64,000 nt of DNA from Leucoraja erinacea. Taxonomy: Eukaryota. The stretch is from the NCBI RefSeq assembly GCF_028641065.1, contig NC_073401.1, positions 22,630,001 to 22,694,000 of the forward strand, written 5' to 3'. Shown piece after piece: positions 9,901-33,900 of this stretch. Both the position numbers and the translations under genes were made by a program. The first letter of the stretch is position 1. Each line of letters begins with the position of its first letter. A model generated the notes under the pieces. It searched no databases and was not told the DNA's origin. It was given only the letters and a program-made list of their open reading frames with translations.

Positions 9901-12900
9901 CTCCTGGAGGCACTGCAACCTGATGAGGACGCTGTTTTCTTTATCTGTGATTCCCACAGACCTGTTGATGTCATTAATGTATATAATGATACACAGGTAT
10001 GTCTGCCAGACATTGACAAAAGCTTGTGATAACTGGCCTTTTTATGTGTGAAATATTGGACTTTGTCTTATTTTTATTTCCTGTTCCTTTCATGTACAAC
10101 CTTCTTTGCCTTGAATGCATTTTTCAAAATTAAGCATGCTATTTTAGGGAATGAAATTATTTTACACTCGGTATGTTAAGAATTTTCAGTGGAATAGTTT
10201 GAACCAAACTAGAAGTCTCTCCTCTCTGAGGAGAAACTGGAGCTTCCCTCTCTTCTGCCTGGAAGTATATTCTAACCCCGTTCTTGGAAGGACCCCAACT
10301 GCATTGATGTTATGATTTACTGACCTGTCCACCTTTTGCAGTGAAGCTACCAATAATCCTCTCCATATGGTAATGACATTTCAGTTTGATGTTTTGTGGG
10401 AAAATACAACGTGTGAGGAACACTGCTGTTGGAAAGTGTTGATGCTCTACGTGATGTGTAAAGAATTATTTTTATCCACTATGCAATTACAGCAAGAAGA
10501 AAACATGGGGTTAATGTTCAAATTGGAATGGGAAATTCAGCAAAAATAATTGAGGGCTATAGTTGTGTGGTGTTCCCAACTAATTTTATCTTGTCATTGA
10601 AATTGGAGCAGATAGTGATAGGAGCCATTCGGCCTGTCAAGCCTACAGCCATTCAATCATGGCTGATCTGTCTTTCCTTCTTAACTCCATGCTCCTGCCT
10701 TCTCCCCATAACCCCTGACACCCGTACTAATTAAGAATCTGTCAATCTCTGCCTTAAAAAAAAAAAAATTGGATAATTTATTGCATCCATTCAAACTAAT
10801 TCCCAAGGGGTTGGATCAGCCGACGCATAATTGCCATTTAAAGTGCATGTAACCTGGATGTGATTTCCTACGGTATGTGCAATTCGTCTTCATCCTTCGC
10901 GAAATACCCAAGATGACTAAGAAATCCATTCGTTCTAGATATTGAGCACTCTGTGATTCCAAAGAACTGATGTTATCTGGGAGTTTTTGCTGAGACTAGA
11001 GCTAAGCTAAGGGGCTCCAGCTTTTGTCACTTGTCCCTTGATACAGATTGACGAAGTTCAGAAGAAAGTCGCAGCTGATTTATTTTTATGTAGGAACCAA
11101 ATGGCCCTCTCAACTCCGATATCCTGAGTCGGCCTTGTTCAAGCAACATCTATGTGGCAGGAGAGACGAAGGTGGTGTGTGTCTTTGGTAGAAAATCTGA
11201 AGCATCTTGGTTGTCAAAACCCATCACTCCAGTACGGTGTGGTAATATAATTGGGAGAGTATATCCACAAATCAGTTTAATTAGTAGTCTGTTCCAGTTG
11301 GTGCAGTTATGGCATCGTATTAGGATTTGTGTTTTCAGCAAATGGTGTTTAATTTCCCTTGTCCATGTGTTGTTAGTGATCATTGCATCTATAATGCTCT
11401 GCACCTGTTCATCCACATATGTGCAAATTAATATCCAAGTTCTGATCCTTTAACTGGCACCATGCCATTATTCGACAGCAATGCTGGAAATGTTTGTGGT
11501 GTGTATGCAGAGATGTCCAAAAAAGCACCACTGGAGAAGCTTTACACACATGGACAAGTGGTGAAGGGAAGATGTTGTATTTTTTACTATGAGGATAGCA
11601 ACATCTTTCTAACTACTAAGACCTGGCATGTACCCACTGCCAACTAACGCAGAGTAGTGTTGTCCTTTGAATACATGCATGCAGTACTTTGATCAAAAAG
11701 TGTGTAAATTATCAGAAACGTCTGAAAAACAGAGCAAGGAAGGTTTAGAAAATTACAAATTTCCAGAAAGCATAAATTTAAAGGGAAATTAATACAGCGA
11801 ACGGTGGGATGATGCCTTTTAGATGGAGAATTAAGATCTAATGTGAACTACATGGAGTTTTGCTAAATTTATAAGTTGTTGGGTGGATGTTAGTTGGTGC
11901 AACAGTTGTGGTGAGGAAGCAGATTTCCCTCACTAGAATGGAACAAAAGAATATAATTTACAATTATGTGAGATAAGAAAAAGCCATGATTGTGCTGTTG
12001 CTGTTTAAATGGTTAGGACACATTTGATCAAAATCTTTAACAGACAACATGCAATGAAATTCTTTTCATTGCTAGGAAGGCCGGCAATAAAGGAAAACTG
12101 ATTTAAAGTAACTTCTCAATATCCCCTTTTGGGTTATTTAAAAGCTATGTAATGCATTATCAAGAAAGGTGGTGAAAACAGGTTCAGCAGTCATTTTTGA
12201 AAGGATAAATACCTGAAAGAGAATTGTGCAAGGCTACAATGTACTCGGGGAATTAAAACTAATTGGTATAGCCCTTTTGAAAGGTTGGCATAGATAAATG
12301 GGCCGAGTGGTAGACATTGTAGAGATTCACTGTTTTTGTTTAATAACAATCACCTTTTCATAATTAGTAGCTTCCCTTGTGAAATTGAACAAATTGCTTT
12401 GTTTATTCAAAGATTTTCTCAAGATTTTAACATAACTGAAATTAATTTACGATGTTAGTAGCTCTTCTGGAATCTAATGTATCATTAAGTGTGGAACTGG
12501 TTGTTAAAAATGTGGCACTTAAATGGAAGGCAAAAGTGCATGTTGCCCATTCATTTACCTCCCTCTCGGGTCTAGAGTCTCCAACAATGGGTCGATTTCA
12601 TCAAAATAGTTTAGATATCGGCAATCACAAGACTTTAACGTCCCATAGAAATGTTAATTTACCTTACTTCAGAACTTTATAAAGCAGGTTAAAGCATGCT
12701 AAAAGTTAATAGTGTGGATAATATTTTATCTTCTAGATTAAACTGCTGATTAAACAGGATGATGATCTTGGTATCCCTGCATATGATGACATCTTCAGGG
12801 ATGATGAAGAAGATGAAGATTCAGAAGATACTGGAAATGAAAGTGAAGGATCAGAACCTACGGGGAAGCGCAGGCGCATGGATGAGGTGATGAATTGTGA

Positions 12901-15900
12901 CCACTGTGTGTAAAGGTTGTTCTGAATGTATTTTATGGGAGAGTTGACTTGACCTGAAGTATGAGTAGCGAACGAGAGAGAAGTAAATGGGTTGAGGAAC
13001 CTGTGAGTCTGTTGATTGAGGGGTCATGGGCATTAAGCCCCAGGGATGGAAGCTTATGGTCTGAAATTTGGATGTTTGGTTATCTGGTGTGAGATTAAGA
13101 CCTGAGACTTTAGCGCTTGTGAGGATGTGGTTCATGGTCAAAGACCTTATTTGGCAAGTTGAGACTCTGCCCATCACCACATCCCTGGCCGTTTCAAGGC
13201 CAGGCCCACCAATGGCGAAGCCACCACCAACCCATACCTTCACTCCGGCTGCCTGTGGGAGAGAGTCATTCACTCTACCAATCCTCACCCACCCCCTACT
13301 CGGCTGACGGCAGGCTGGGGTAGTCGATTCGTCTGAGTTCCAGGCCAAGTTCTAGGCTGGGGACCTCCACACTGACTGTACCAACTGTGTCGCGTTTATT
13401 GATTCATTCTGCCAGGAACCCCCTTCCAACAGGCAACGTTGATACCACTGTGTCCTACTGCTCTTCCCCCTATTCCAATAATGCCACTTCTCCTACCCTA
13501 CACCATGCCTACTTCTCTGCACCTTCATCCATCCTTTTGGCCCTCATTCTGATGCAAAACAGTCAGCCCTTCGCAGAGGCTTTGGCTTTGTTCCTCACGC
13601 CCTCACCTCAACTAGTTCCAAGATCACCATGATGTTGAGCTCATCTTCCTTCACCTCTGCCTCTGGGCCTTTTTCTCTGGTAAGGAGTCCTCCATGCCCA
13701 GTGACGGCCACTTCCCCCATCTCCATCTTTCCTCCTCTTCATGGACTGTCCCTGCCAGCCTTTTCTTACTTGTTTTATGTTAAAGATGTGGCCATGGACA
13801 CTCGCATGGTCCCCAGTTATATCTGTCTATTTGTCGGTTATATCAAACAGTCCTTGTTCCATAAGAACACTGGCACCATCACCCAACTCTATCTCAGCTA
13901 CTTCGCCGACTGCATCGAGGCTGCTCCTGCACCCTGTGCAGAACTCATCGATTTTATTAACTTTACCACTAACTTTAACCTGCCCCCAAATTCACTTGGA
14001 CTATCTCTGACACCTTACTCCCCTTTCTTGATCTCTCAGCCTGTCCCATATGATGGAGGCAATCAACTGTCTGTCACGTTGTCCCCCACCCCTGAGGGGG
14101 GAAACGAGGATAGAGATTCCCTGTTCTCTCCTTTCACCCCACTAGTCTCCACATTCAACACATCAGCGTATGACATCTCCACTCCTCCAGTATGATCCCT
14201 CCATCAGTCACACATTCTCATCCCCACCCCTTTCTGCCTTCCACAGAGACCACTCCCTATGCAACTCTTCAGTTTCTTCATTCATTCACACCCAAACCAC
14301 CCCTTCCCATAGTACTTTCCCATGCACCAAAGTAAATGTAACACCTGTCCCTGTACCTCCTCCCTCGCCTCCATCCAGGAACCCCAGCTGTCCTTCCAGG
14401 TGAAACGGAGATTTACATGCAGCTCCTCTAACCTTATCTACTGCATTTGGTGTTCCCGATGTGGACTGCTGTACATTGGTGAGACCGAGCATAGACTCGA
14501 TGACCATTTTGCTGACTACTGTACTGACCTTTCTGTTCTAGGTTGACTCCATTGCCAGAGTGAAGCCACATGCAGACTGGATGAACAGTGCCTCATATCC
14601 CGCTTTGGGTAGCTTACAACTCAACAGCATCTATAAATTATCCAATTTTAGATAGTCACAACACTCTCATTTCTTTCTCTCTTTTCTCCCCCCCCCCTCT
14701 CTCTCTCTTCCTTGTGCCCCACCTGGACTTGCACTTATTTCTCCCCTCCCCTTCAACTTGCATTGTTTTCTTGAGCTTCACAATTTGCAACTCTGAAATC
14801 ATTTTATTTCTCATTCTTCCTTCTGTCTTTTGATTTTTGGTCCTTCTCCAGCCATCTGGATATCAAAAAAAAAAAACCCTCACCTGTTACTTCCCATGCC
14901 TTGTCTTGCCCCTCTCTTCCAGCTCCCTATCCAATCCCCACAAAGTCTGACGAAGCTTCTCCACCCAAATCATCACCAATCCATGTTCTACGGAGAAGTT
15001 GCCTGACCCCTCAGTTACTCCAGCAGTCTGAAGAAGGGTCTCGACCCGAAACATCACCTATTCCTTCACTCAGTAGATGCTGCCTCACCCGCTGAGTTTC
15101 TCCAGCATTTTTGTCTACCAGCATTTTGTATCGTCTTTTTGTAATCCAGCACGTGTAGTTACTTGACTCTGCCCTGCATCCTATATATGGGGATCTGGGA
15201 TGGATATTAGTAGCATTGGGGGTGAGGTCGGTGTATAGTGTTAATGATGGACATTCATGTGATGGTTGGAAGTGATGTTGGTACTGTTTATGGGTGAAAA
15301 ATGATGCAGGGTAAAGTCGAGTTGTTGACTTTCCTTGATAGTGTTTTAATCTGGTACTACACCAAGTTAATAATGGGTGTTCCCATAACAAGTGGTTAAC
15401 GTTCCCCTATGATGCATTATATGTGGGATGATGAGAGTTGTACAAATTGCCAAGAGTAATTCATGTCTGGACATGCCTGGTCTATTTTCCAGAATGTTGC
15501 AAATTAATAAAAAATTATGACAATTGAGTTTATTTCACAGCAATCTGGTTTCTGTTCTGATCCAGTCGCAAAATAATTTGTAGAATTGAAATTCTGAGCA
15601 ACAATATCCAGAGTTTGTGTATTTTGTTTTATATGTAATCTTATCCATTTCCGCATAGTGTAGGGTGGTGGTGGGAGGGTAAAGAGATGTGGAGAGGTGG
15701 AAATGTTGCACAATCTGGTACTGAATCATGTAGGCCCAAGATATTTCCAGATTCAATCTGTCTCTGCTAATTACCCGGTCTGAATGTTTATATTGGAGCA
15801 GTCTTTTAGCTTTATAATTACTTAACATGAAGAACGTTAATTCATATGTGTGACTGTTAGCGATGATCATTTTTGCTTTCTTTTGATGTCATTAACAGTT

Positions 15901-18900
15901 TGGTGGCCCTTTGCCAAATACTGCTGTTTAACCCAAAAAGAAATGATAAAAAGCAGTTATGAACATTTAGTACCTAACCCGTGTTATTGCATCAAGGCAC
16001 ATTACTTTCAGGAGAATAGAACATTGGGAAACTTTGTTTCACTTGAATTCGTGTAAAGATATTATTAGAGAAAAATCCAGCCAAAGTAGCATGGAGAAAC
16101 TTAAATTTTTTAATTAAAAAAAAAATTTAAAATACTCAGTCAAAAATGAGTCGAAGGGAGATGAATCATTCTAGCTGACTTTGTCTTATTTTTATTGCAC
16201 CATGCTTGATGAAAAAGTTACTATCTAGTGCAATTCCAATTCCCAGCAGTGCTGGTGATGGTTTGTCATGTGTGAAAATAAATGTCAAAATAGATTTATT
16301 GATGGGCTATTATTACAATCTTTTAAAAAAATATTATTGTGTTCTAGGGGACCATGGAGAGGAGAATAGATCGAAGACGCCAGCGCCGTGAATGGGAGGA
16401 GCGCAGGTACTGGTTATTGCAATTAGCTTTCATAGGTGTCAAAATTTGTGCTGTTCTAGCCATAAACTGTACGTTTAAACAAAATGTTCTGTTCGGTATA
16501 AGTATGTGAGTTAAACAAAGAGTAGCTTGTTCTCAGCTGCCTCTTTGTGAATCAACAGGCTTGTTTGCTACTTTATATATTTCGCCACTCTCAATTATCC
16601 TGCACATATAACAATCCTCCCCATGCCAGACCCCAGCACATACCTGAAGTTGAGGTGCTTTCCAAATGAAGGTAAAATTGAGACCAATTCAGTCCATGCT
16701 ACTGTCACCTACCCTTCAGTTTGTGCCATTAAGTACCCATCTACATTGCGTGGGGTGTGGAGAATGCTTCATGCTCTCTATAGTGTTGTTGCGTATTTTG
16801 TATACATAATTCGCAGTCCCATTCGGCTCCTTGACTCAATAAACATGCTTGTCTATCCAGTCTCTCCTTGTTAATGGAGCATTCCTTCCCAGGCAATATC
16901 CTGCTAAATCTCCTTTCTATGTGTACTCTTAACTGGATTGCAATGCTTTGTTTTCCCATTGGCTCTTCATTTTTATTTGATTTTGCTTTGACAATGATGG
17001 TGAATGGTGGTTAAACATTGCTTTATATTACATCGATGCTGAGGGCATCTTGTAATTCTCATCATTTCCTCTTTGGCAGTATCTTGGTTCATCTTAAAAT
17101 AGATTACATTTTGCGCAGGTCATCTCATAAAATATTTTTAGTTGTCTGCACTTTTGTTTTTTTTAATGACAAAGTACCTTGTCCCTCCCATTCCTCACCA
17201 TCTACTCTTTTCTGGTCGAATTTATTCCTTGCTTTAATAATGCAACATACTTTTATGAAGTGCCTTAATACAAAATGTCCCAAAATTCCTAATGGTGCAG
17301 CATTGGTTAAAAAGCACTCTTGGCATAATGCAGAACTCAGTTTCCTTACACTTCCCATTTCACCTTAACTGCCCTGAACTCATCCCCACTGCCGTTGAAA
17401 CCCTCATCTACATTGAATATGCAAAAGCTCTCTGCTTGGCCTCTCCTTTTAGACTTTGCATAAATGTGCTTAGCTAAGAGTTTATTCAAAGATGTGGGTT
17501 GCAAGTGGCATCTTTAATGGCAGTTGTGGTATCTGAAACCCTGGCCATCGCTATTGCAACTGAAGTTAAAACTGGGAACCACAGATCTACATTGCTGGGC
17601 TAGAAAATGTTCAAGATGACAAAGGATAAGATTGTGCAGGGATTTACATTGGGATTGGAAAAAGTTTAGTTTTGCCTGACCAGGAGCCTGTGGTGTTTAG
17701 TAAGCTCGGGTGTGTTGTGCAAGTGGGACTTGGAGTAAAATAAAGGAGAGAGCAGCAGAATCAAGGAAGAATGTTTATGTGGATTAGAAAATGGAAACTT
17801 CAGAAGGACATTGGCCTCAAAATAACAGAGGCGTGTATAACTATTTTAGAAACTGAGTTGGTTAGGGGTAGTGTGTGATGTTGTGCTATGCAGGAGAATG
17901 TGGATACTTGGCAATTAAATGGCTGTTGTCAAAAGCTCACATAAGGGTCAAAGCAACACCTACAGGCACTTACCAAGAATGGAAGTGATGGGCAACAAAC
18001 TGACTTTGTAACAGAAGTAAACCCCGGGGCTTCTGCCTTCCAGATACTTAGTTGGCTTGTAGATTACGAGAATACGTCTAGCACATACCCTTGTGTGACA
18101 CATGCATTTTGCAAACTAAGTTGCAAATAAAGTTTTGTTTTTACATTACGAAGTGGGAACATTTGGCCTTGCCAGAATTATTTGTCAATAACTTTTCAAA
18201 ATAATGTTTATTTGTAAAGTTTAATGTTATGTAATGAAATCATTCGTGGGGACTGATTAGCATGAATATAAGAATGGATTCAATAATGGAATGAACGTAG
18301 TATTTTGAGTGACAGTTAGATTTGAATGTGATGTTCTGGGTAGAATGAGTGTCAGATTTTAGTTAAAGAAGTCGTGGCTAGATTGTTAACAATCAAACTT
18401 CTGTGTCTTTTACAGGCGAGAGATTTTATTTGAATATGAGCAATATGAATACCATGGGACTTCGGTATGTATTTGTAATCATTGGAAACTTACATGTACC
18501 GTTTAGCTGTTTATATTTTTCAACAAAAAAAATCTTTATTTTCTCTGAAATTATACTATTCTGTGTCATTATTCAGTGCCTCTTGAGGATGATAGAAATT
18601 ACTGTTTTGATCAATGCCCTCAAAATGGAACTGCATTCTCGTATGATTAAGTAATTTGCAGTGGTGAGGCTGAGAGATACAACATCGAAACAGGCCCTGG
18701 CTGACTAAGGGGCTTGTCCCAATTGGCGATCCCTTTTTATTATTTTATTTATTTATTTCCGATGACTGCCGGTGTCATATCAATGTCGCCAAAAGATTTT
18801 GAACATTTCAAAATCCAGCGGCGACATAAAAATGACACTTGAAAAAGTCAATACGTCATCACGCAGCGTCACCGTTGAATCACGGCGCAAATTTTTCGCT

Positions 18901-21900
18901 GACCTGATATGTCAGTCAAAGATGCCGGCATTCGCCGAAAAAAATTGCCAAGTGGGGCAAGTCCCTTAGTGATCATCAGTACATTAGTTCTATGTCCAAC
19001 ACACCTGGGACAATTTACAGAAGTCAATTAACCAACAAACTTTCATGTCTTGCAAGGAAACTGGAGCCACCAGAGAAAACCCATGCGGTCACAGGGAAAA
19101 CATGCAAACTCCACACACAGCATCCGTAGTCAGGATCAAACCCAGGTCTTGAGCTGTGAGGCAGCAACTCTATTGCTGAACCATTGTGCCACCCTTTTTC
19201 ATTTTTCTTTCCTCGCATGGTGGGATTTACTGCAGAATTCAGAAAATAGTTATATTTAGGAGATAGTACATTTGATTCATAAGCAAAGTACTTGCATCAC
19301 ACTGCTTCCCTTTTAAAAGGGGGAAATCAACCCTGTTGTATGCATTGGTACATTCTTCTCCCAACTTGTTCAATCTCATTTAAGTTCCATAATCAACAGC
19401 ATTTCAGTGTAACGTAAACATCTACTTGACAATTCTGAATGCCTTGATACGCATGCGCTGATGCTGATCCTACCTTGAGTGTCATGTATGACCAGAGTAA
19501 GCTTTGTTTTATACCTTGGGCCTCTAGGTATTCTCAACCTCCATTGGCACATTGTGGTTCCTGCATGTATTGTTCACTAAATTCACTGCTGCGTTTTGTC
19601 AAGGCAATTTTGGCACCTTTGAAATTTGCAACGTACCACCTAAAAGCACCAAGGAAGACTGGCCTTGAAAACACAACCATTTGCAGGTTCCTCACTGATT
19701 AGTGATGTAGAGATTCTATTAGTACTTCCTACCGTTCAACTTTCTGGAAATATCTTCAAAAATGTGGTTCAATTCTATTTCCCAAGGATTTTTTTTTGTG
19801 CGTTGGACACCAATTTTCTCTTACCAACATCGTGTAGGTTTTTTTTTTTAAATAATTATTTTGTTTAAATATATGGCAACCAGTATTTGCTTGAACATTT
19901 TCATTAATTTATATTTTCTTTACATACACTCCGTTTCGGTTTAGACAGGAAGACCAGCATATTTGCACTTCTGTATCCATTTTCCTTTCATGCCTCGGTT
20001 CTTGTACAATTTGTTCAGTCACTGCAGAGAAGCTTAGCATGACACTCAGATAACAAAGCACGGGAATAAATTGTGCTTTAGCCTTCATTGCTGACGTACA
20101 TCAGAGATCATGAGTGAATATCCATCAAGGAAGTAAATTCTTTAGCGCTAGATTGTTCTGGGGAGTTGCTAATCTTCAAATGCTTGATAGGCATGGCTTG
20201 CCATCCTTGTATATCACTCTTCATATAATTACAAACTGTTAACATTTACTCAAGCTGTCCGGAAAGCTATTTAATAGAACTCCGTATTGTTCCTTGGGGT
20301 GATAAAGGGCTCTTTATGAGGATTCCATTTTATTTGTTTTTGGTATGCATTGATTTTTGTTTTGTATATCTTTTATATATACACAACCATTTGCAGGTTG
20401 TAGTTCTATTAATTAGCTTTCCAGACAGCTTGAGTGAATGTTGACAGTTTGTAACTGTGAAGAGTGATATGCAAGGATGGCAAGCCATGCCTATCAAGCG
20501 TTTGAAGATTAACAACTCCCCAGAACAATCTAGTGGTAAAGAATTTACTTCCTTGATGGATCTTCACTTCTTAGCAACTGGAGTGTTGGTCCACAGCAAT
20601 TTCTCCAAAATGATGCAGTGCCAATTAATTCAAAAAAGCAAAGAAACCAATGAGGTAATGAAGACTGCCTACTCGTTTACAATCTTTCCCATCAAATAAT
20701 ATGATCCTTCAAATGAAATTTTGAAAGATTGTATGGAAAAGTATATTGTAATTAAATTGGCTTATAGTCATGGTTTCCTGTGTTCTCTTGCAATGAAAAC
20801 TTTCCGTCCTTTGCAGATGGAAGCAAATTTCCCTTTAAGCATAGTACCACATCCCTCTATTTTAGCATGCACAAACTGATTGCTTGCCTTAAGTTAGCTT
20901 TTTTTCTTTACTCTCTTTGTTTTGATTCCTTTTTTTCACTAAGGCATGTATCTCTATTAAACATGCTATTTGAAATATTTTTTTCACCATATTTGTTCTT
21001 TCCTTCATGTAATTTTCTGTCAATAATCAACGATAAATTTGTTTCTTTTTCTTTCTATTCTATTCAGTTTTATTTTCATACAAAATTGGATTGTTTTATC
21101 TGGAACATCACATGTTGGGGGCAGAACTGATAGAAGTATATAAAATTATAAATAGGCTAGACACTTGAAACCTTTACACTGGGCGGAAATGTCTAGAACT
21201 TGAGGGTATAATTTTAAGGTGTGAGGGGCAAACTTTAGAGTAGATATGTGGGGCAATTTTACATAGAATGGTAGGTGTCTGGAACACGCTGTCATTGGTG
21301 ATGTTGGAGGCAGATACGATAGTGGGATTTAAGAGGCTTTTGAATTGGGACATGGATGAACATGGAATGGAGGGATATAGATCACACGCAGGCAGATATG
21401 AGTTAATCTTGGTATCAAGTTTGGCATGGTCTTTGTTGGCCGAGAAGCTTGTGCTGCACTTTTCTATATTCTATTTGCATTTATTTGTACCAATGTTTTC
21501 CAGTATTTGTTTAACTGTGAAGATGGTATTCTAGATCTGGGTTCAGTAAATTTTGGGGATTCTCCATTGACGTTCTATCACAGAGGTTTTCATGTTCTTG
21601 CGTCATCCCAAACTGCTTTCAACATCAAACAATAGCTTCTGTAGTGCAATTGTTAATTTTATGTAGGTAAAGTTAAAGCAATTTTGTGTACAACAATGTC
21701 ACAGAGTAGTAGAATTGTTGCTGATGGCTGGATCCCAACAGGGCACTGCGAGAGCTCCCTATTCTTTTGACATTGCTTCATTGCCTCATCTGAAAGATGA
21801 CAGCTCTGATAGTACTGCTGTCCTTCTGCAGAATACCAAAATGTTGACTTGAGTGAAGTAATTCAATTAGGGAAATGAGGCAAGGAGCTACAGTTATATG

Positions 21901-24900
21901 TAAGGGTATAATTATTAGGCTGGTGTTTGTAAAGAATGCTGCATAGTTGGAAGCAACATTTTAACCCAAGGCTAATTAATTAATAATCCTGTTGTTTATT
22001 TGCAGTCTGGAATGGTAATATTTGAGCTAGCCTGGATTATGTCCAAGGACTCAAATGATATGTTGTGGTAAGTGCTTTCCATATGTAATAGAAACTTATA
22101 ATAATTACTTGCAGTTTTCTTGACCATATTGTTGTAAAACTTGCAATTTGCCCTAATTCTTGAAGCCGTATTTTGTCTACCTGGTTTTTTTTTTGTTTTG
22201 TTTTTTTAGGTGGGCTATTGTTGGTTTGACGGACCAATGGGTTCATGACAAAATCACACAGTACGTATTCTGAAATGCTTCTGCTTTTTTAGCCTGATAT
22301 CAGCAGGGAAGATTTCCAGATTAAATATGATGTTAATTAAATATTAGTCTGTGTCAATTTGCCTTAACTCAAAGCTGTGAAGAGAACATAAGACATGGAA
22401 GTTTCCATTTCATCAATTTTAAACCGCCCTTATGGCCTCATTTGCATAAATAGGGACCATGCTGACCATCAAACCTTTTAAGGTTGTTTGTGGATATCAG
22501 AATGAAACTTAATTCCAATTATGGTTTGTTCTGCAGCATGAAGTACGTGACAGATGTTGGCATTGTGCAACGTCACGTGTCGAGGCACAATCATCGTAAT
22601 GAAGATGAGGAGAATACACTTTCTATTGATTGCATGAGAATCTCCTTTGACTTTGAGTATCCTTTAATCGGAATGCAACAATCGGAGAAAGATGACCAGT
22701 GAATGTTATTGCTGAAGTTGTAGGTGAATTGCATGTGGATTTTGAAACAACCAGAATTAAACTTAATTCCAATTATGGTTTGTTTCAATTCATTTTCAAT
22801 TTGGTTGATAAATGCTTTTTTGGGTTGCAAATGTTAGCTCAACAGTTCAGGCCTACTCATCATGTTACATAAGTGGCTGTGAAGTTGGACTGTTTTTTAG
22901 CAAGCAGAAAGAAAAATTGGCTTTCAGTTGGTTGACGATCAAGGTTTTATTAGAAGATTTTGATCTAAAAAAATTAGCAGGGGTCAATCGGTAGGTTATG
23001 TTTTTCCTCTGGTTCAAATGATGCCACAGTTTGTACTTTGGAGCAGAAGGAAATAGAATGTTCAACTGAGCACAGAACCAAAGCTCTAAGCCATTATTCA
23101 GTGAAATAGGACAAAATGGCTAGTAATTATTGTTTCTTACCTTTTGGCAATCATAGTATCAATATCTAAAGATGAGATTCTTCAAATAGATCATGAATAG
23201 TTCTGATGTCATTAGTTGGAAGGCCTTTCAATAATCTGACCAGAGTGGGTCTTTGATCTTGGAGATGGATTAGATTTGACTGACAATCCTCAGGAAAACT
23301 ATCTGTAAATTTACATTGTATACATTTACAGTGATGTAATGACGTAAAAGCAATTTTTATCACTCTTTCCCTACCCCCCCTCCCCTCCCTGTTCATTTTA
23401 AGTCTTGTGCATTTTCACTTATTTTTAGTTTAGTGTTGATGTCATTATGTGTTGTAAATGTGAATGCTTTAGTTTTCTTTAACTACAAATCTTGTTCAGT
23501 CTCCGCCTTGCTTTGTATCACCATTGGTCATTGTATGAGAGCATGTGTAACTCCAACTATACCTATGCCAATCTCAAGCTATGGTCCATACAAGGTTTGA
23601 AGAGACTTCAGGAATTCTTAGCAGAAATGGGGTAGGTGAACCCTTTCAAGTTCCACCTTCTAATGATTCAAAACTGTTTTCAAAGGAGCCACTGTTAAAT
23701 TCAAACTGCAGTAAAACTGATAATTCAGCATCCTTGGGACTTTGGTGATTCTGGACTATTGGATGTTACTTCTGATGTTACACATATTGTGACACATTTC
23801 CAATTTACCTTTTTTGCATTGAGGGAATTGTATCTTTAGCCATACTGGTGGGGCTGATATTGTACTATTATTTAAATAATATAGACCAAGAACCTACAGG
23901 CAGGTGACCCTGACATCAGTGGTAGGAAAGTTGCTGAAGAGGATTTTTAGGGGCAGGACCTACCAGCACTCGGATAGGCACGATTTGATTAGGGATAGCT
24001 GGCAGGGCTTTTTGCGTGGGAAATTGTGTCTCACTAACCTGAGTTTTTTTGAGGAGGATTGATGAGGGCATGTTATCTACATCTTCAGCATGGACTTGCA
24101 TGGTAGGCTAGTCTGGAAGATTACATCGCATGAAATCCAAGATGAACGAGCCAATTGGATTTGATATTAACTTGGACGAAGGACTCTAAGGAGAGTGTGG
24201 AGGGTTGTTTTCTAATTTGAGGCCTGTAACCAGTGGTGTGCCGTAGGGGTCAGTGTTGGGTCCAGTGCCGTTTGTTACATGTATTAATGATTTGGGAAAT
24301 ATTGTTATTAACGTTGTTAGTTGATTTGCAGATAACACCTAAATTAGTGGCGTTGGTGATAGTGAGGATGGATATCTACGTTTGCAACGAGATCTAGATC
24401 AGTTGGGGAAATTAATCCAAGGCATGGGAAATGGACTTGAACTCTGACAAGTGTGTGGAGTTGCACTTTGGTTTGTCAAATAAGATCAGGACTTGCACGG
24501 TCAATGGTGGTGCCCTAGCGAATGTTGCAGAACACAGACATTGTAAGTACAAGTGTATGGTTCCCGAATATTGGAAAGTCAGACCGTCTGCTTGCCTGTG
24601 GATAAATGTGAGGTAAAACAGGAAGGCAGATTATTATCTAAATGGTGTAGTTGGGAAAAGGCTAAGTAAAACGGGATCCGGGGGTCTTTGTTCATCAGTA
24701 AATGAAAGTAAGCATGTGTAAAAGCGAATGGTATGTCGGCCTTCCTAACGAGGAGTTGAGTATAGGAGCAAAGAAGTCCTTTGGCAGTTGTACAGGGCCC
24801 TAGTGAGACCACACCTGGAGTATTGTGTGCAGTTTTGGTCTCCAAATTTGAGGAAGGACATTCTTGCTATTGAGGGAGTGCAGCAAAGGTTCACAAGGTT

Positions 24901-27900
24901 AATTCCCAGGATGGCAGGATTGCCATATGCTGAGAGAATGGAACGGCTGGGTTTGTATACTCTGGAATTTAGAGGGATGAGAGGGTATCTTATTGAAACA
25001 TATAAGATTATTAAGGGTCTGAGAACATATCCTGCCCTTGATGCAATTCATGACCTTGATGCAATTCATGACCTTGGATTTAGTTTGTGTAATATCTAAC
25101 CATCAATTTTCCTATTTATGTTGCAGACTCCCGCTGAACCAAGTCAGGCAAAAGTTTAACTCTATGGACATCTCATTGAAGGATAATCTACAAGAAATGA
25201 CTTGAGGAGTCTGCAAGTAAATTTGGGTAATTTTTTTTCTTTTAAATTGTGGTTTTATAATTGGTTTGTAGAAATTGCTGTGACTATGAAATAGCACAGG
25301 TGTTTTCTTGAAGGTAACTCCATGGCAAGATTTGAAGAAAGAACAAAAGTCCTGGTATTTTACCCAAAAAATACACCTTAAATCATCTCCAGGAGTAAAA
25401 TAGATTATGCAACAATAGTGCATCTAGCAGAAACACTGTCTCTGAGTGCCATAGATTGGGTTCAGTCCTGATCTCGGGTGCTATGTCTTTAGAGTGCAGG
25501 TTCTCCCTGGATTTTATCTCGCATCTGACTTTTTTTTAAATTTAACATTCCAAAAAAGCGTGGGTTGGTAAGCTAATTGGCCATTGTAAATTATAATCCT
25601 ATGTATAAGTGAGTGGTAGAATGTTGAGTGAATGAAGAAAAGATGGAAGTAGGATTAGTGTTAATGAACAGGTCATAGTCAGCGCAGACTTTGTGGGCTG
25701 AAGGGTTTATTTCACTCTGTCTATGACTCATCTGTTCAGTGGTTGTGAGATATTGGGTCCTACCATGTTTGGCATTATAAAAAAATTAATCGAAAGATTA
25801 ACACGTGCTATTGAATATCAGTACGTACAAATTCTTTACAACAGATCGTCCATCTACATTACATCACAAAAATAAAGGCAGCTTAATCATAGAAAATTGT
25901 GCTGGATAATAATTGATAATGAAATACTGATTCCTTCCTCACCTGCCTAACCTATTACAGAAACGTGTATTGATAGTTTTCAAGAGAGTTAGATTTCGGT
26001 CTTGGAGCTAAGAGAATCGAGGGATATGGGGACAAAGCCGGAACGGGGAACTTGTATTGGATGATCAGCCATGATCATATTGAATGGTGGTGCTGACTCG
26101 AAGGGCCGAATGGCCTACTTCTGCTCCTATTTTCTATGTTTCTTTGATCTCAAACTGAATAATCACCATCACCTGTGTTTCCCTTCTCACACGCCCACCC
26201 AACTTTCATTTCACCAACAGGCACTATGTTGCATTTGGTAGCAATGTCATAGTGCAACACTTTTTTTGTTATGGTGTTTACTCTGGTAGTCGTTGGTTGA
26301 TTCAAACTGTTCCTAATTATTGCTCTAAGAGTTTTTCTGTTTATTTTCAGAATGAAGGATATCCGAGTACAAACGTTCAATGTGCACTTTGGGTTTAAAA
26401 ACAAGTTTCTTGCCAGTGACATTGTTTATTCAGTAGCGTCTCTGCTTGAGAACATTGAGAGAGACGATGGGAACAAGAGCTTTATCGAAGCCTTGGACAG
26501 TCTTTCCAGGTATTGCTTGCTTTTGGCTGCTGCTTGGGGATCTGCGCTATACATACTGTAGATGTTGAGTTTGCAATGCTATGATTTGACTAGAAAATAT
26601 TGAAACAATATATAAATGAATGATTATAAACTTCTGCCGTGCTTCCTATTAAATTTCATTGCTTGTTCGCAAACACATAGTAATTTATAGAAGTGCAGAT
26701 GCTGGTTTAAACCGAAGATAGACACAAAATGCGGGAGTAACTCAGCGGGACAAGCAGCATCTCTGGAGAGAAGGAATGGGTGATGTTTCGGGTCGAGACC
26801 CTTCCTCAGACTTGCACTTACACAAATCAGTGTCCCTGTTCAAAAACAATTAAATAATTTAAGCTCTCTTTTATTTGGCACAATGATTTTCACTGACTGG
26901 GTGATATACTGTCAATGAACCAGCTTCAGTCTGAAGAAGGGGCTCGACCCGAAACGTCACCCATTCCTTCTCTCCAGAGATGTTGCCTGTCCCACCGAGT
27001 TATTCCAGCATTATGTGTCTATCTTCAGTACATAATAATTTGTTGAGTTCTTGTAGTTGGAGGAAATCTGCTGTCAAAGTAAATGTCAATAACGCTATCT
27101 AGTAGCGTTTCTCTGGTAGTTAGATTAATGCAGTAAAATTAAGCAGATTGTATTTGTCTGGGAACGACTCCCAGCTGATTTTTATTCACTGTTGAATTGG
27201 TTATTTCATATTTAATTTACCTGCTTCATTTGATTGTTTCTGTCTTGGAAAATAACTGAAAAGGTGGGTACTGCTTGATATTTGGAATTGATCACATAAC
27301 TATCCTGTAACATCTGGAGAATTATATCTCTAAAGCAATTTTTTTTTAATGTTTGCTTTGGAGATATTTTTAAAGAAGGCATGAGAGAAATTAACACATG
27401 GAAGAAATATGCTGTACTTTCCAAAAATCCTGATTATTTTTTTAATTGTAAAATCTGAAAATTTAAAAAATGTTAAAATTGACTGCTCAATCCATAAATT
27501 ACCTTACACTCCATCCCTTTGATCACACCTACCATGTATACATTTTCTGTGAGCTGCCCACGTGTTGCACATTCATGTCAGCTAACAATGGGGGGAAAAG
27601 TATTGTGTTTATTAATAATTTCACTGTGTTTACAACCAATCCTTTCATTGCGATAACAAAATCAAGTTAAGCCAGCTCTTGATCTCAAGCCACTTTATTG
27701 TCCACTTACCTTCTTTTCAGATCTGAAGAAATTGTATCATGTTGCATTATTAGTGAGTTCTGTGATTTTGTTTGGCTCAATATGTACAATGCAGTAGAAA
27801 TTGTGACGGTGAGTCGGCTTGTAGTGTCGTATATTATCCACTAGGTGCTCTCCGTGTACCTGTGCTTGTCCATAAATGCCAAGGCAAAATCCTCCCAGAT

Positions 27901-30900
27901 TCCAGAGAAATGCTGCATGCTCTTTTCTTACATTTTCAAATAACGTTAACAATTACAATGGATTCCTTAACCACCTCCCAAACGCCATCCTCAAATTGTG
28001 TATTATAATGCATAAAATATGTGGAAAATCATTATTAACAATGAAAAAACTAACTTTTTTTTGCCTTTCTGTAGAAGTAATTTAGATAAACTGCATCAGG
28101 GTCTGGAACTGGCCAAGCAACAGCTCCGAGCAATTCACCAAACAGTTGCCAGCTGTATTTGTACCAACCTTATCATCTCGCATGGACCCTTTCTTTACTG
28201 TTATTTGCAAGAGGTGAGGATCAGCCTTGGAAAGATATTATTACAGTGCTTTCCATAATGTTTGGGACAAAGACCCAGCATTTATTTATTTGCCTCTGTA
28301 CTCCACACTTTGAGAATTGTAATAGGAAAAAAAACACATGCGGTTAAAGTGCATATTGTCAGATTTTAATAAAGACCATTTTTATACATTTTGCTTTCAC
28401 CATGTAGAAATTACAGCAGTGTTTATACATAGCGCCCTCCCCCCCCCCCCCCCCCCCCCCCCCCCCCATTTCAGGGCACCATAATGTTTGGGACACAGCA
28501 ATGTCATGTGGATGAAAGTTGTCATGTTTAGTATTTTGTTGCATATACTTTGCATTCAATGACTGCTTGAAGTCTGTGAGTCATGGACATCACCAGTTGC
28601 TGGGTGTCTTCTCTGGTGATACTCTGCCAGGTCTGCATTGCAGCCATCTTTAGCTTATGCTTGTTTTGGGGGCTTCCCCTTCAGTTTTCTCTTCAGTTTG
28701 CTCAATTGGGTTCAGATCGGGTGATTGACGACCACTCAAGAATTGACCATTTTTTAGCTTTGAAAAACTCCTTTGTTGATTTAGCAGTATGCTTGGGATC
28801 AATGTCTTGCTGTAGAATGAACTGCCAGCCAATGAGTTTTGAGTCATTTATTTGAAATAGAGCAGGGGATGTGTCTATACACTTCAGAATTCATTACGCT
28901 TCTACCATCAGCAGTTGTATCATCAATGAAGATAAGTGAGCCCAGTACCTTCAACAGCCATACATGCCCAGGCCGTAACACCCCCACCACTGTGTTTCAC
29001 AGATGAGGTGGTATGCTTAGGATCTTGGGCAGTTCCTTCTCTCCTCTGTACTTTGCTCTTGCCATCATTTAGATTTAAGTTAACTTTTGTCTCATTTGTC
29101 CACAAGACCTTTTTTCCAGAACTGTGGTTGCTCTTTTAAGTACTTTCTGGCAAACCGTAACTAGGCCATCCTGTTTTTGTCACTAACCAGTGGTTTGCAT
29201 CTTGCAGTGTAGCCTCTGTATTTCTGTTCATGAAGTCTTCTGCAGACAGTGGTCATTGACAAATCCACACCTGACTCCTGAAGAGTGTTTCTGATCTGTT
29301 GGACAGGTGTTTGTTTTTTCTTTTCTTTATTATAGAGAGAATTCTTCTGTCATCAGCTGTGGAGGTCTTCCTTGGCCTCCCTTTGCGATTAGTAAACTCA
29401 TCAGTGCTCTCTTTCTACTTAATGATGTTCCAAACAGTTAATTTTGGTAAGCCTAAGGTTAGATACATCAATCTAACAGTGTTATTATTGCTTCTCGGTC
29501 TCATAATGGCTTATTTGACTTTCATTGGCACAACTTTGGTCCTCCCGTTGATAAACAGCAATAAAAGTTTCCAACAGTGATGGAAAGACTGGAGGAAAGA
29601 CAAGGTGCTGGGAGCTCTCTTATACCTGCATTAAGGAGGCAATTAAACACCTGGGCAATTGCAAACACCCGTGAAGCTATGTGTCCCAAAAATTATGGTG
29701 CCCTGAAATGGGGGGACTTGTGTATAAACTCTGCTGTAATTTTTACTTTGTGAAACCAAAATGTATAAAAATGGCCTTCATTAAAATCTGACAATGTGCG
29801 CTTTAACCACATGTGATTATTTTTCTATTACAGATCTCAAGTTGTGGATTACAGAGGCAAATAAATAAATGATGGGTCTTTGTCCCACACATTATGGAGG
29901 GCACTGTGCCCTTTTTGATTCCCACATACGAACTATTAATATATCAATGGCACTTCCTGTGAAATTAATAATCACAACTAGACCAGGAAATAAATGAGAC
30001 TAACAATTTCATTCAGACAACACCAGCAAGACAGTTAATTGGTCACCAAAGTATTTTCTCTATATGTGTCTTTGACTGCCTTTGTATCCTCCTTTCTCAA
30101 TTGTCTAATCTTTAAAAATCTTTTCGACTTTAAGAATAAGTAAGCCATTTAGAACGGAGACGAGGAAACACTTTTTCTTACAGAGAGTGATGAGTCCGTG
30201 GAATTCTCTGCCTCGGAGGGCGGTGGAGGAAAGTACTCTGGATGCTTTCAAGAGAGAGCTAGATAGGGCTCTTAAAAATAGCGGAGTCAGGGGATATGGG
30301 GAGAAGGCAGGAACGGGTTACTGATTGGAGATGATCAGCCATGATCACATTGAATGGCGGTGCTGGCTCGAAGGTCTGAATGGCCTACTCCTGCACCTAT
30401 TGTCTAATGACTCAAAATGGTGGAATAATTCAGTGGGTCAGGCAGCATCTCTGGAGGAAATGGATAGGTAATGTTTCAGGTCGGGACCCTTCTTCAGACT
30501 GTCTAATATTTTACATTCTCCAGCACCTGGATTATAAGAGGCTGAGGGGTGATCTTATTGAAGTATAAAATGACGAGGGGTCTGGATAAAGTTAACACTC
30601 AGTCTTTTTCCCAGTGTAGAGTATTCTATAACCAAAGGACATAGGTTTAATGTAAGAGAGGAGAGATTTTAGAGGTTTTTCTGTATCTGAAATAAGCTGC
30701 CAGAGGAAGCTGTAGACGTGCATATAATTATCATTCAAAAGACTTTTGGACAGATATATTGATAGAAAGGCTTTAGAAGATTATGAACCAAATGCAGGTA
30801 AATTCGACCACCCTAGAATACCAAGTTGGATAGCATGGATTTTGGGCTAAAGGGCCTGTTTCCATGCTGCATGGCTATCTGACTCATTGAATGATGGTAG

Positions 30901-33900
30901 ACACTAAATGCTGTAGTAACTCAGTGGGACAGGCAGCATCTCTGGAGAGAAGGAATGGAATTGAATGATGGAGCAGGCTCCTCCTAATTTGTAAATTTTG
31001 TATAATTTACAAATTGTCAGCCACGGTCCAATCTTTCCTCTGACATTAAAATTGTAGTAGAGCCCACATTCAGCCAAATTCTACATTTAAGTGCAAAGCA
31101 GTGCATCTCTGAAAAATGTGTAACTAGAATAACCATTGGGGAAAATAAACAATCATTCCTCATTAGTTGAAGGGTTAAAGTTCCCAGCCTCAAGTATAGA
31201 GTCATCCAGAACGTGAACACAAGAGACACAGTTGAAGTGTTTGTAATTGCCTTAAGCAAAATGTGCTGATTACACAATTGTACCCTACAAAGCTGTCTCC
31301 CTAGCAACCTCGCCGCCCTACATGTGTGGTGGCCGGTTTACGATGCAATAGTTGAAAAAAAAAGGGGGGGGGACAAAACAAAAGCCTGATGCCTTCCCAG
31401 CTGCAGTGCTGAACTTCACTGTGCCAAGGACTGCCCCTTCTATAGCAAAGCTGTTTGCAGGGCAACTCCACTGCAGCTTTCTATCCATGTGGCAAAAACA
31501 AAATGCTAGAAATACTCAGCAGACCAGGCCACGTCTGTGGGAAGAGAAACAGAATGTTTCAGGTTGAAGACCTTTCTCACAACTAAAAAGAGGAAGTAAG
31601 GACAGCACAGTCGTGCTGCAGTAGAGTTCCTGCCTTACAGCACCAGACACCCGGATGCGATCCTGACTGGGTGCTGTCCGTGTGGCGTTTGTACGTTCTC
31701 CCGTCACCGCATGGGTTTTCTCCGAGTGCTCCAGTTTCCTCCCACACTCCAAAGCCATACAGGTTTGTAGGGTTAATTGGCTTCGTTAAAATTATTTCTT
31801 GCCCCTAGAGTGTAGGATAATGTTGGTGTGCTGGGTGATTGCTGGTCGGTGCGGAATTGATGGTCTGAAGGGCATGTTTCCACATAGTATCTCTAAAGTC
31901 TAAAGAAGGTTGTAAAGTTGCAGAAAAATTAGGGGAGAATGTCCTTGTGTAAAACCAGCGTAATCAAGGGGATAAGATATAAATAAAAGGTCATCTGGTC
32001 AATGAGTGAATGGGAGCAGTTAGAGTGAGAACATGGACAAAAGAATGTAGGAGTTATGAAATGCAGAGCAGAAGAAACTGCCTGGCAGTTTAGACTGGTA
32101 ATATCCTTCATTCCCAGAGGGAAAAGGAAGCAAAAAGATTAAATTCAACTAATACTATAGATGACATGCAAGGACCCAACAGTTTTTCCAGGTAAAGCTG
32201 CGATTCGTTTGCACTTCTTCCAATCTAGTGCACTGTGTTTGATATTCACAACATGATGTCTGCAGCATTGGAAAAAACAACGCAGATTAGATGTCAACTT
32301 TGCAGAACATCTGCCTTCACTCAAAGGGAGTGACCCTGAGCCTCCCATTGCCAAACGACACTTCATTTTCCCCATGGACACATTGAAACTTTCTGGACCC
32401 GATATTAAATTTCACAATTTCATGTAACTTGCTTTCTTGGCCTGTATCAGTCATCTACCAGGAATAATAGCTTTTTATCCCTTCCTTTCTGCAAATGGAG
32501 GACATCCCGAGCCTGATCTGCTGGGCTTGTCCTGCTTGCCTATGTTCTTGGCCTCTAGTTCCGCTCATTTACTTTTTGACCAGAAACCTTGTTTGCAACT
32601 TAAACCCAATGTTACCTGCTTTTAACTTATCAGAGACGCCCTGCACGCCCATCCTCCCTGCAGCTGCACAAGACTCTTGTCTCCTTTCAGTTCTGACAAA
32701 GGATCTCTGACCTGAAATATCCCCATAGCTTGTGGCTTGACCTGCTAAGTATTCCCAGTAATTTTGATTTAGATTTCTAGCCTTTCAGTCTTTCTTATTT
32801 TCACAATTATGTGACACATTGCCCATGTAATCCTATGCATTAAAATAAATAGGCTGTCTACAATTTAAAATTATAATTTAAGATGGGTAAATAAACGCTG
32901 CCATGAATCTGTTGCAACTGAGGAATATATTTTTGTTTTAATGTTAAAAGCACAAGCATTATCAGGCTTCCTTGATATAAACTGATCTAATTGGTAAAGA
33001 TAAAAGCAACAGGAAAGAAAAGCAACAGATCAAGTGCTAAACACGAGGTGAACAAATAAGTTGTTTTTCAAATTTTCTTCATTCAAAACTTCAAAAACTA
33101 ACATCTTTAAATTGCCAGCTGTTTAAAATTCAAGCACTTTCTAGCAATGGTGACAAAGATGTTGGTTTATACAATAGATTCAGTACATGTGTTGTTTTGA
33201 GTAATTTATATATATATAAACTTTGTCTCCAGGGCACTCCAGATGTGAAGATCTATTCAAAACCCATTTGTCTGAAACTTTTGTGCAAACATCTGCTCAA
33301 GTGTTTTGTCCGATCGGTATGTATGTTTCCAAAATTGTAGGATAGCTTCAGTGAAATTCTGGACATTCCCTTGGTGCCAACTTGTATAAATAACACAATG
33401 TTTCAATGAATTTATTTAGTCTTCTCTGTATTAGATGATGTATCTCAGCCATGCGGACCTGATTAAGTTTTTGGTTTGCGTAAGTCGTCGACTTCACAGC
33501 AGGCAGTGAAGAAAGCGAATGGCATGTTGGCCTTTATAACAAGAGGAGTTGAGTATAGGAGCAAAGACGTCCTTCTGCAGTTGTATAGGGCCAGGTTAGA
33601 CCACACCTGGAGTATTGTGTGCAGTTTTAGTCCTCTAATTTGAGGAAGGGCATTCTTGCTATTGAGGGACTGCAGCGCAGGTTTACAAGGTTAATCCCTG
33701 GGATGGCGGGACTATCATATGCTGAGAGAATGGAGCGGCTGGGCTTGTATACTCTGGAGTTTAGAAGGATGAGAGGGCACCTTATTGAAACGTATAAGAT
33801 TATTAAGAGTTTGGACATGCTAGAGGCAGGAAACATGTTCCCGATGTTGGGGGATTCCAGAACCAGGGGCCACAGTTTAAGAATAAGTGGTAAGCCATTT

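What the first reader, a model, noticed from the sequence alone, without database searches (positions are those of the whole stretch)
26928..26965. Dispersed family of minimal hammerhead ribozymes carried by short Penelope-derived segments
Seen: a segment of about 100-130 bp recurs more than 15 times, and about ten copies keep the core (a/g)gt-CTGAAGA-A-GGGTC-TC-GACCC-GAAA-CG-TC-accc. The best copy is here, with predicted cleavage after 26958. Others are at 2995-3030(-), 5630(+), 6289(+, disrupted), 15028(+), 26778-26812(-), 30466-30500(-), 46601-46635(-), 47322(+) and 52371-52404(-). Established: this is the type I hammerhead layout CUGANGA / stem II / GAAA / stem III / UH. An extra A after A9 is tolerated, and a loop-less palindromic stem III (ACGU) is typical of the minimal, dimer-dependent ribozymes of Penelope-like elements. 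Inference: most copies lack any RT ORF and could be a non-autonomous, retrozyme-like family. Sense copies inside CDC45 introns 5 and 13 could be latent pre-mRNA cleavage sites.
Basis: partly seen in the sequence, partly recalled or inferred. Interest (0 to 1): 0.7.

Follow-up and report, generated by a model that had tools for sequence, protein, structure and literature searches.

The report
Penelope run-off stubs with eroding hammerhead
These repeats are the short end pieces of a known kind of jumping gene (Penelope-like) that carries a known miniature self-cutting RNA motif; most young copies begin within a few bases in front of the motif, likely because copying ran off the start of the uncut parent RNA, and they are unlikely to cut host transcripts.

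Summary
The repeat is real: 25 hits in the window, about 8x10^5 genome-wide, 43,348 with an exact minimal-hammerhead pattern. Only 3 of 25 window hits keep every core base, and the named 'best' copy has a stem II mismatch. The segment is the pseudo-LTR end plus tail of a Neptune-type Penelope-like element (RT + GIY-YIG; a young partial tandem was recovered). Short copies are separate insertions with 7-16-bp duplications, two 3' ends about 35 nt apart, and 5' ends piled 1-8 nt before the core, not at the cut site. They share haplotypes with copies still attached to the upstream pLTR, and head-to-tail arrays are rare. So they are most likely run-off cDNAs from uncut element RNA starting at an initiator-like TCAGT, not a retrozyme family. 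Between subfamilies the motif changes only at tolerated positions, but stem I shrinks from 5 to 2 bp and GUC becomes GUU in the youngest. Dispersed copies decay roughly neutrally. CDC45 splices normally across both intronic sense copies. Known kind; this scan found the same pattern before on other DNA.

The parts
26928..26960 (+). Focal minimal hammerhead motif: AGT (stem I 5' arm, 2 bp usable), core 26931-37, extra A, stem II with one mismatch at 26942, GAAA, ACGU stem III, predicted cut after 26958, stem I 3' arm
26959..27029 (+). Element leader downstream of the cut site, ending at the proximal 3' end (about +65)
26690..26812 (-). Inverted partner copy, long form with the ~35-nt tail; stem III CpG decayed
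26813..26927 (.). 115-bp non-element spacer between the two heads; 85% match over 72 bp to window 5211-5282
26675..26686 (+). Left copy of a 12-bp target duplication (11/12) around the whole head-to-head unit
27030..27041 (+). Right copy of the 12-bp target duplication
2930..3028 (-). Solo copy, core intact, two stem II changes
5580..5699 (+). Older copy with pyrimidine-rich pLTR upstream; core decayed
5697..6381 (+). 5'-truncated PLE: endonuclease C-terminus (68% to L132 protein over 60 aa), 3' UTR/pLTR, hammerhead split by a 26-nt hairpin insertion, tail
13482..15025 (+). Decayed PLE remnant: RT piece (53% to L132 protein over 73 aa), EN piece, pLTR, decayed hammerhead at 14944
15026..15117 (+). 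Solo copy nested in the tail of the 14944 copy, in the CDC45 intron 12886-16345; stem III reads ACAU
30409..30500 (-). Solo copy with an exact 8-bp target duplication; core decayed
30898..30959 (-). 5'-truncated copy without the core, exact 12-bp target duplication
46538..46784 (.). Head-to-head pair: 46635- (core intact) and 46694+ (core decayed, short pLTR upstream)
47317..47407 (+). Solo copy, A9 and stem III lost
52274..52974 (-). Truncated PLE end: EN remnant, pLTR, hammerhead (stem III decayed), long tail
56407..56571 (.). Head-to-head unit joined inside stem II
58369..58553 (.). Near-perfect palindromic head-to-head unit of the youngest subfamily, 12-bp duplication (11/12)
12735..28214 (+). 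CDC45 exons mapped by spliced contigs (host gene; extends beyond this range)

Best explanation
The segment is the hammerhead-bearing end (pLTR end plus tail) of a Neptune-type Penelope-like retrotransposon, and the 95-135-bp copies are likely dead by-products made when the element's RT primes inside the RNA leader and runs off the 5' end of uncut RNA. Shown: identity with the element's ends, separate insertion with target duplications, two 3' ends about 35 nt apart, 5' ends piled 1-8 nt before C3, and head-to-head pairs inside one duplication. Inferred: the 5' end is the transcription start at an initiator-like TCA(+1)GT. The leader sits before the ORF's ATG, so priming at the 5'-proximal site gives a stub, while priming in a downstream tandem copy gives the longer, randomly truncated copies. 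Priming at both nicked strands gives the inverted pairs. The hammerhead is a real ribozyme motif selected in the active lineage, predicted to cut only as a dimer or with protein help, and weakened in the younger subfamilies. In dispersed copies, including those in CDC45, it is predicted to be inert.
For: L132 is a partial tandem with a 3,948-bp unit, 99.55% identical overlap, motif at both ends, ATG 165 nt after the upstream core, RVT_1 and GIY-YIG hits and a CX4CX2C linker. Closest named proteins are from bamboo and whale shark. Of 148 evenly sampled copies that reach C3, 51 are pLTR-attached, 41 solo, 40 inverted and 16 other. Exact duplications of >=8 bp flank 9 of 50 solos against 1.0% in shuffled pairs, and >=7 bp flank 24 of 26 young solos. 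Young 3' junctions: 15 of 24 at +61-69 and 7 of 24 at +98-103. 5'-end loss is 38 of 92 in the 10 nt before C3 against 18% in a constant-rate simulation (p=2e-7). Of 54 young copies, 36 end at -2 to -8 (-12 by gapped score) and 18 run on for >=55 nt, none between. Among 17,430 exact young cores, match is lost at -1 in 9.2%, -2 in 9.2% and -3 in 22.1%. No ends at the cut site: 0 of 79 at +28 and 0 at +26/27. Upstream pLTRs diverge but keep CAGT, with GC boxes in 4 of 6 groups and TATA-like words near -30 in 2. Precedents: internal priming at two sites, extension of both strands, uncut RNA as main substrate, protein-assisted hammerhead (PMC11167929); internal Inr/DPE promoter in the pLTR (PMC2377424); TATA plus Inr-like pLTR (PMC3846280).
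Against: The 5' ends are spread over about 8 nt and the commonest last templated base is G(-2), not the initiator A(-3). In the mixed-age sample 79 of 171 non-inverted copies end inside the segment, so plain truncation also contributes. RNA reads from three raw-read runs showed no start pile-up at TCAGT, though reads from thousands of copies swamp this test. Pfam hits are below the curated cut-offs. None of the 20 long loci fetched had one unbroken ORF from the ATG. One set of copies showed a small excess of core conservation (4.9% vs 6.6%, p=0.022). No cleavage assay was possible.
Confidence: 0.68

Rival explanations
1. Same element, but the 5' pile-up is not a transcription start. It marks 5'-to-3' trimming up to a folded or protein-bound leader, RT drop-off, or a 3' splice site (polypyrimidine tract plus CAG|).
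For: The predicted MFE of young leaders is a long hairpin that begins at G(-2)/U(-1), matching the modal end. The pLTR is pyrimidine-rich and ends in CAG. In D. virilis Penelope the intron ends at helix I (PMC4209133).
Against: Target duplications abut the core within 0-8 nt in most solos, with no shared upstream exon. No splice joint into this site was among the 15 of 84 joints displayed. G is over-represented just outside GT-ending copies (44 of the first 100 listed, hand count, against about 30% expected), which fits a cap-templated base.
Confidence: 0.2
2. The stubs are a self-propagating non-autonomous family (retrozyme- or SINE-like), transcribed from an internal promoter and mobilised by the PLE protein.
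For: Fixed ends, target duplications and very high copy number. An internal promoter would travel with the stub (PMC2377424). Retrozymes are reported as PLE-pLTR derivatives, including in one chondrichthyan (bioRxiv 2026.07.22.740005).
Against: No solo-only lineage: 4 of 4 major subfamilies are mixed, and haplotype distance does not separate short from long copies (p=0.90; 13 variable columns, so low power). Only 6 same-strand neighbours against 49 head-to-head among 292 hits, and none of the 6 has two intact cores. The unit is not bounded by cut sites. The hammerhead is minimal, not canonical.
Confidence: 0.1
3. In the young subfamilies the hammerhead no longer cleaves at all and is kept as promoter or protein-binding sequence (compatible with the best explanation's account of the stubs).
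For: Stem I falls from 5 bp (13-20 of 22 paired per position, old family, 16.5% diverged) to 2 bp (third and fourth pairs 1/29 and 0/29). The youngest subfamily has U.G pairs in stems I and II and a GUU site. The hammerhead fold lies 5.7-6.2 kcal/mol above the MFE in three young subfamilies against 2.2 in the old one. Tail blocks are also invariant across subfamilies.
Against: Changes hit only tolerated places (N7, H17, loop II, wobbles), and both remaining stem I pairs changed on both sides (C-G to U-A/U-G; U-A to G-C). A 2-bp helix I occurs in active D. virilis Penelope (PMC4209133), and the anole ribozyme cuts only with its protein (PMC11167929).
Confidence: 0.35
4. Sense copies in CDC45 introns act as latent pre-mRNA cleavage sites.
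For: Both copies are sense and intronic. The 26928 copy keeps all core bases.
Against: The intron-5 copy lacks ACGU. The neighbour of 26928 is antisense. The stem III duplex is only -3.1 kcal/mol, stem II probability in context is <=0.08, and the active dimer is about 21 kcal/mol above the dimer MFE. Two contigs show regular GT..AG splicing across both introns, and no read ends pile at 26958 (coverage there comes mostly from other copies). G12's CpG decays as fast as tail CpGs (27/93 vs 26/94).
Confidence: 0.03

Closest known systems
Minimal hammerheads (min-HHR) in pLTRs of metazoan Penelope-like elements (Cervera and De la Pena 2014, PMC4209133; parts 1-2 of 4 read, two supplement files searched, one file not searchable)
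   Same: Type I layout, extra nucleotide between 9 and 10.1, G10.1-C11.1, palindromic 15.2-16.2 without loop, location in the pLTR, thousands of dispersed single motifs attributed to truncated PLEs.
   Different: Stem II is 5 bp with a 2-nt loop (7-8 bp in Schistosoma). Stem I is 2 bp in young subfamilies. 43,348 exact motifs here against about 4,000 (coelacanth) and 9,000 (Xenopus) there, by a different descriptor. No shark or skate terms in the supplement files searched. Defined 5' ends were not described in the parts read.
EN+ Penelope-like elements, Neptune clade (Craig et al. 2021, PMC8557442, passages; Arkhipova et al. 2013, PMC3846280, passages)
   Same: RT + C-terminal GIY-YIG with CX2-5CXXC linker, partial tandems, inverted 5' copy, optional 30-40-bp tail, solo pLTRs, captured host DNA between pLTRs inside a target duplication.
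   Different: Here most copies are much shorter than a pLTR (leader only), carry their own duplications and start at one place. The rotifer solos often lacked duplications and were put down to recombination or deletion.
Poseidon of Anolis (PAc) in vitro (Frangieh et al. 2024, PMC11167929; parts 1-2 of 4 read)
   Same: Two internal RT start sites bounding the tail, both strands extended, unprocessed RNA used, no RNA-seq reads ending at the cut site.
   Different: Different clade. In PAc the ORF starts inside stem II; here the ATG lies beyond the tail. Run-off stubs are not discussed in the parts read.
Metazoan non-LTR retrozymes (Cervera and De la Pena 2020, PMC7229834, passages; bioRxiv 2026.07.22.740005, part 1 of 5 and passages)
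   Same: Type I hammerhead, non-coding, PLE-related, larger target duplications.
   Different: Retrozymes are 150-450-bp head-to-tail repeats with mostly canonical ribozymes and abundant circular RNAs. This family is dispersed or head-to-head, 95-135 bp, minimal, and colinear with the autonomous element.

Membership tests
min-HHR of metazoan PLEs | CUGANGA, GAAA, NUH core in type I order | tested here: met
   Invariant in 4 of 4 young subfamily majorities; 43,348 exact matches; 3 of 25 window hits intact
min-HHR of metazoan PLEs | Extra nucleotide after A9, G10.1-C11.1 pair, palindromic 15.2-16.2 | tested here: met
   feature list from PMC4209133
min-HHR of metazoan PLEs | Helix I of 4-5 bp (2 bp in the D. 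virilis variant) with compensatory change | tested here: inconclusive
   5 bp in the old family, 2 bp in the young, both pairs changed on both sides
min-HHR of metazoan PLEs | Located in the pLTRs of a PLE | tested here: met
   L132, L131 and further RT-bearing loci
min-HHR of metazoan PLEs | Self-cleavage as dimer or with protein | not testable with these tools
   Folding disfavours the active form; no RNA end pile-up
EN+ PLE, Neptune clade | RT followed by C-terminal GIY-YIG | tested here: met
   RVT_1 E 1.5e-6 and GIY-YIG E 0.006, both under the curated cut-offs; 2,105 homologues with the same domains
EN+ PLE, Neptune clade | CX2-5CXXC linker between RT and EN | tested here: met
   CX4CX2C in L132; shared with Nematis per PMC8557442
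EN+ PLE, Neptune clade | Phylogenetic placement with reference Neptune RTs | not tested
   No named reference set was on hand; the clade name rests on the linker and the host group
EN+ PLE, Neptune clade | Partial tandem, inverted 5' copy, 30-40-bp tail | tested here: met
Non-LTR retrozyme | Head-to-tail repeats with a hammerhead in each unit | tested here: not met
   6 same-strand neighbours among 292 hits in 800 kb, none with two intact cores; a genome-wide tandem count was not obtained
Non-LTR retrozyme | Lineage independent of the autonomous element | tested here: not met
Non-LTR retrozyme | Abundant unit-length linear and circular RNAs | not testable with these tools
   The runs laid were poly(A) or single-cell libraries and assembled contigs

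The most novel reading that the evidence does not exclude
Neptune PLEs start transcription three bases in front of their hammerhead and prime reverse transcription 95-135 nt downstream. Their commonest product is therefore a strong-stop-like cDNA that is itself integrated, about 70% of young core-bearing copies here. This would explain why PLEs need tandem copies to move an ORF. The subfamily series (5-bp to 2-bp stem I, GUC to GUU) would record a ribozyme being tuned down so that the capped leader stays uncut while the element expanded.
Probability: 0.4. Interest if true: 0.55.

Novelty: new member of a known kind. Interest (0 to 1): 0.3.

Why it matters
The motif class and its massive dispersal are published. 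What adds value is a very large fossil record of a poorly understood mechanism. The stub ends predict, to a few bases, the RNA start and the two priming sites, and the age series of subfamilies gives matched strong and weak ribozyme variants for testing what the PLE hammerhead is for, which is still open (PMC8557442). It also warns against reading the tens of thousands of intact motifs in such genomes as host regulators or as a retrozyme family.

Tried and rejected
Rfam scan: no hammerhead family at E<=10; the models do not cover this minimal form, so this is no evidence against. A first core-versus-tail test gave 3.6% vs 8.6% (p=6e-8, 88 copies). I rejected it because copies were chosen by alignment to the core and the tail included subfamily-diagnostic columns; the repeat on copies chosen without the core gave p=0.42 (48 random) and p=0.022 (130 in all). 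Cleaved RNA as template: no 5' ends at +26 to +28. Upstream UC|A as a permuted cut site: it cannot form stems I and III (by inspection). A Pol III B box in stem II: it mismatches and is not kept in the young subfamily (by inspection, consensus recalled). Run search: no RNA holder listed. Read laying could not show a start site, cut site or circle, because reads from many copies pile on any reference and only 1-6% of each raw run was read. A genome-wide count of head-to-tail dimers was not obtained; only the 800-kb sample speaks to it. Paper searches: hammerhead+ribozyme+Leucoraja gave 0. Searches listed nothing on defined-start PLE stubs, but subscription papers, Repbase/Dfam entries and bioRxiv supplements were not visible, and the chondrichthyan retrozymes of the 2026 preprint could overlap this family.

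Full report
1. Observation. The 26928 segment recurs 24 times by blastn and 25 times by a profile built from 42 genomic copies. At the focal copy C3 is 26931 and C17 is 26958, as stated, but stem II reads GGGGC/GACCC. Twelve of 25 window hits reach C3, and three keep all core bases and ACGU. Eighty evenly spaced 10-kb stretches gave 303 hits, about 8.3x10^5 in the 2.19-Gb genome (inverted pairs count twice). An exact pattern for the intact motif has 43,348 matches against 0 for the control. In the sample, 36 of 152 copies covering the core are intact and 23 also keep stems I and II. Rfam finds no hammerhead.

2. What it is. Window 5697-6157 and 13482-14655 are decayed endonuclease and RT pieces lying upstream of such segments. 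Searching the genome with the RT piece (150 matches listed) and fetching 20 long-frame loci gave L132, a partial tandem. Its unit is 3,948 bp, the overlap is 99.55% identical over 1,779 bp, and the motif sits at both ends. The ATG lies 165 nt after the upstream core, and a frameshift splits the ORF. The protein has RVT_1 and GIY-YIG hits below cut-off and a CX4CX2C linker, the Neptune/Nematis mark (PMC8557442, passages). Its closest named relatives are from Chiloscyllium and Rhincodon at 62-70%, so the host is inferred to be a cartilaginous fish. All but one or two of 30 loci picked by the EN-3'UTR region continue into the motif. The segment is thus the end of the pLTR plus tail, and at the same time the leader of the next tandem unit.

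3. Anatomy of the short copies. Of 148 sampled copies that reach C3: 51 pLTR-attached, 41 solo, 40 head-to-head, 9 next to another repeat, 4 nested or tandem, 3 at an edge. Solos are true insertions: exact duplications of 8 bp or more flank 9 of 50 (1.0% in shuffled pairs). For precision I fetched 54 of the 55 youngest-type matches among the first 100 listed; the pattern required GT at -2/-1. Twenty-four of 26 solos have a 7-16-bp duplication (two or three may be chance). Their 3' junctions fall at +61-69 (15) or +98-103 (7), with 2 elsewhere. Thirty-six of the 54 end 2-8 nt before C3, 18 run on for 55 nt or more, and none ends between (p about 1e-4 under a 1.2%/nt rate). Genome-wide, among 17,430 exact young cores the upstream match is lost at -1 in 1,595, at -2 in 1,461 and at -3 in 3,179, and 11,195 keep AGT. 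Combined with the sample, about 27% are long. In the mixed-age sample the loss rate per 10 nt is 6-16% inside the segment and 41% (38 of 92) just before C3, against 18% recovered in a constant-rate simulation. No ends lie at the cut site (0 of 79 at +26 to +28), and 11 lie at +20/21, the 3' foot of stem II. Neighbouring hits are head-to-head 49 times, head-to-tail 6 and tail-to-tail 5. 940 perfect palindromic junctions centre on the TCAG-N-CTGA dyad. The focal copy is one arm of such a unit: 26690-27029, with a 115-bp foreign spacer, inside an 11/12 duplication.

4. One family or two. Four main subfamilies (2.7, 6.3, 6.6 and 11.2% mean divergence) each hold solo, inverted and pLTR-attached copies. 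In the youngest, short and long copies share haplotypes (p=0.90; 13 columns, low power). A separate lineage is not needed.

5. Is it a ribozyme. At lineage level, likely yes. The four majorities differ at 21 columns, none in the conserved core: stem II changes keep pairing by wobble and H17 is C or U. An older family (16.5% diverged) has N7=U and a 5-bp stem I, while the young ones keep 2 bp with both pairs changed on both sides. Caveat: the old set was fetched with a U4A variant as query, and 22 of 35 loci entered the pair count. The series from 5 bp to 2 bp, and to U.G pairs with GUU, points to weakening (GUC and GUA are the fastest triplets, PMC3138052 passages). ViennaRNA puts the hammerhead fold 2.2 kcal/mol above the MFE in the old family, 2.6 in the oldest young subfamily and 5.7-6.2 in the other three; active dimers lie 15-24 above. 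The model ignores tertiary contacts and 2-nt loops. At copy level there is no clear selection: 8.1% vs 9.5% in 48 random copies chosen without the core (p=0.42), 4.9% vs 6.6% in all 130 (p=0.022), more gaps in the core, and the catalytic G12 CpG decays like tail CpGs.

6. CDC45. The gene is on +. Two contigs of about 1.86 kb show GT..AG joints that skip 15028 (intron 12886-16345) and 26928 (intron 26509-28072). No displayed joint uses either copy (15 of 33 shown), and no read ends pile at 26958. Coverage of the unique introns was near zero, so this shows normal mRNA exists, not that cleavage never happens.

7. Mechanism. Shown: the ends, duplications, orientations and shared haplotypes. From the literature: the anole PLE primes at two internal sites, needs sequence downstream of them, extends both strands and uses uncut RNA (PMC11167929, parts 1-2 of 4). 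Drosophila Penelope has an internal Inr/DPE promoter in the pLTR (PMC2377424, passages and section 15). A rotifer pLTR has TATA plus an Inr-like word (PMC3846280, passages). The human Inr is BBCA+1BW (PMC5287114, listing only). Inferred: RNA starts at TCA(+1)GT, three bases before C3, with GC boxes or TATA-like words upstream. The only priming site followed by ORF sequence in a monomer RNA is the 5'-proximal one, so the usual product is a 95- or 135-nt run-off cDNA. ORF-bearing copies need a tandem or circular template. Two primed ends joined at their heads give the inverted units. The weakest step is calling the end a start site; trimming to a folded leader fits the modal G(-2) as well.

8. 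Verdict. A new member of a published kind (PMC4209133), not a retrozyme family and not a likely host regulator. The defined-start stub model and the stem I erosion are useful, testable additions. I found neither in the searches, within the library's limits. I stated the run-off reading before seeing earlier notes. Searches show that the scan reached it many times on this and other genomes; those are unchecked AI notes and not independent support. One of them reports a pile-up at the cut site in another genome, which I do not see here. Interest 0.3.

Noticed in passing
window 6262-6287: A 26-nt hairpin insertion (10-bp inverted arms) splits the hammerhead core of this copy and duplicates 8 bp of it; it looks like a tiny DNA-transposon-type insertion or footprint.
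   Followed up: no
window 26813-26927 and 5211-5282: The spacer captured between the two heads matches a second place 21 kb away in the same gene region at 85% and nothing else among the loci then in the search file.
   Followed up: partly
window 57679-57866: 188-bp near-perfect palindrome unrelated to this family; gives a below-threshold MIR820 hit.
   Followed up: no
window 59247-59900 (-): Single-exon claudin-like ORF near CDC45; fits CLDN5-CDC45 synteny as recalled.
   Followed up: no
L132:2286-2322: RNA reads and contigs show 32-34-nt head-to-tail duplications of the core region that lack CUG.
   Followed up: no
L132:1900-2410: In both single-cell runs reads lie about 4-10 times more often on one strand over the EN-pLTR region; this may reflect internal oligo-dT priming or antisense bias in introns.
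   Followed up: no
sampled copies, +20/+21 from C3: Small excess of 5' ends at the 3' foot of stem II (11 of 79; the simulation inflates these positions 1.2-1.5-fold), a hint that stem II forms in the template RNA.
   Followed up: partly
L221, L223-L225: Old variant with CUGAUGC before the extra A, so the position of the extra nucleotide or A9 differs.
   Followed up: no
window 1115-1829: GC-rich inverted duplication of about 700 bp, unrelated to the finding.
   Followed up: no
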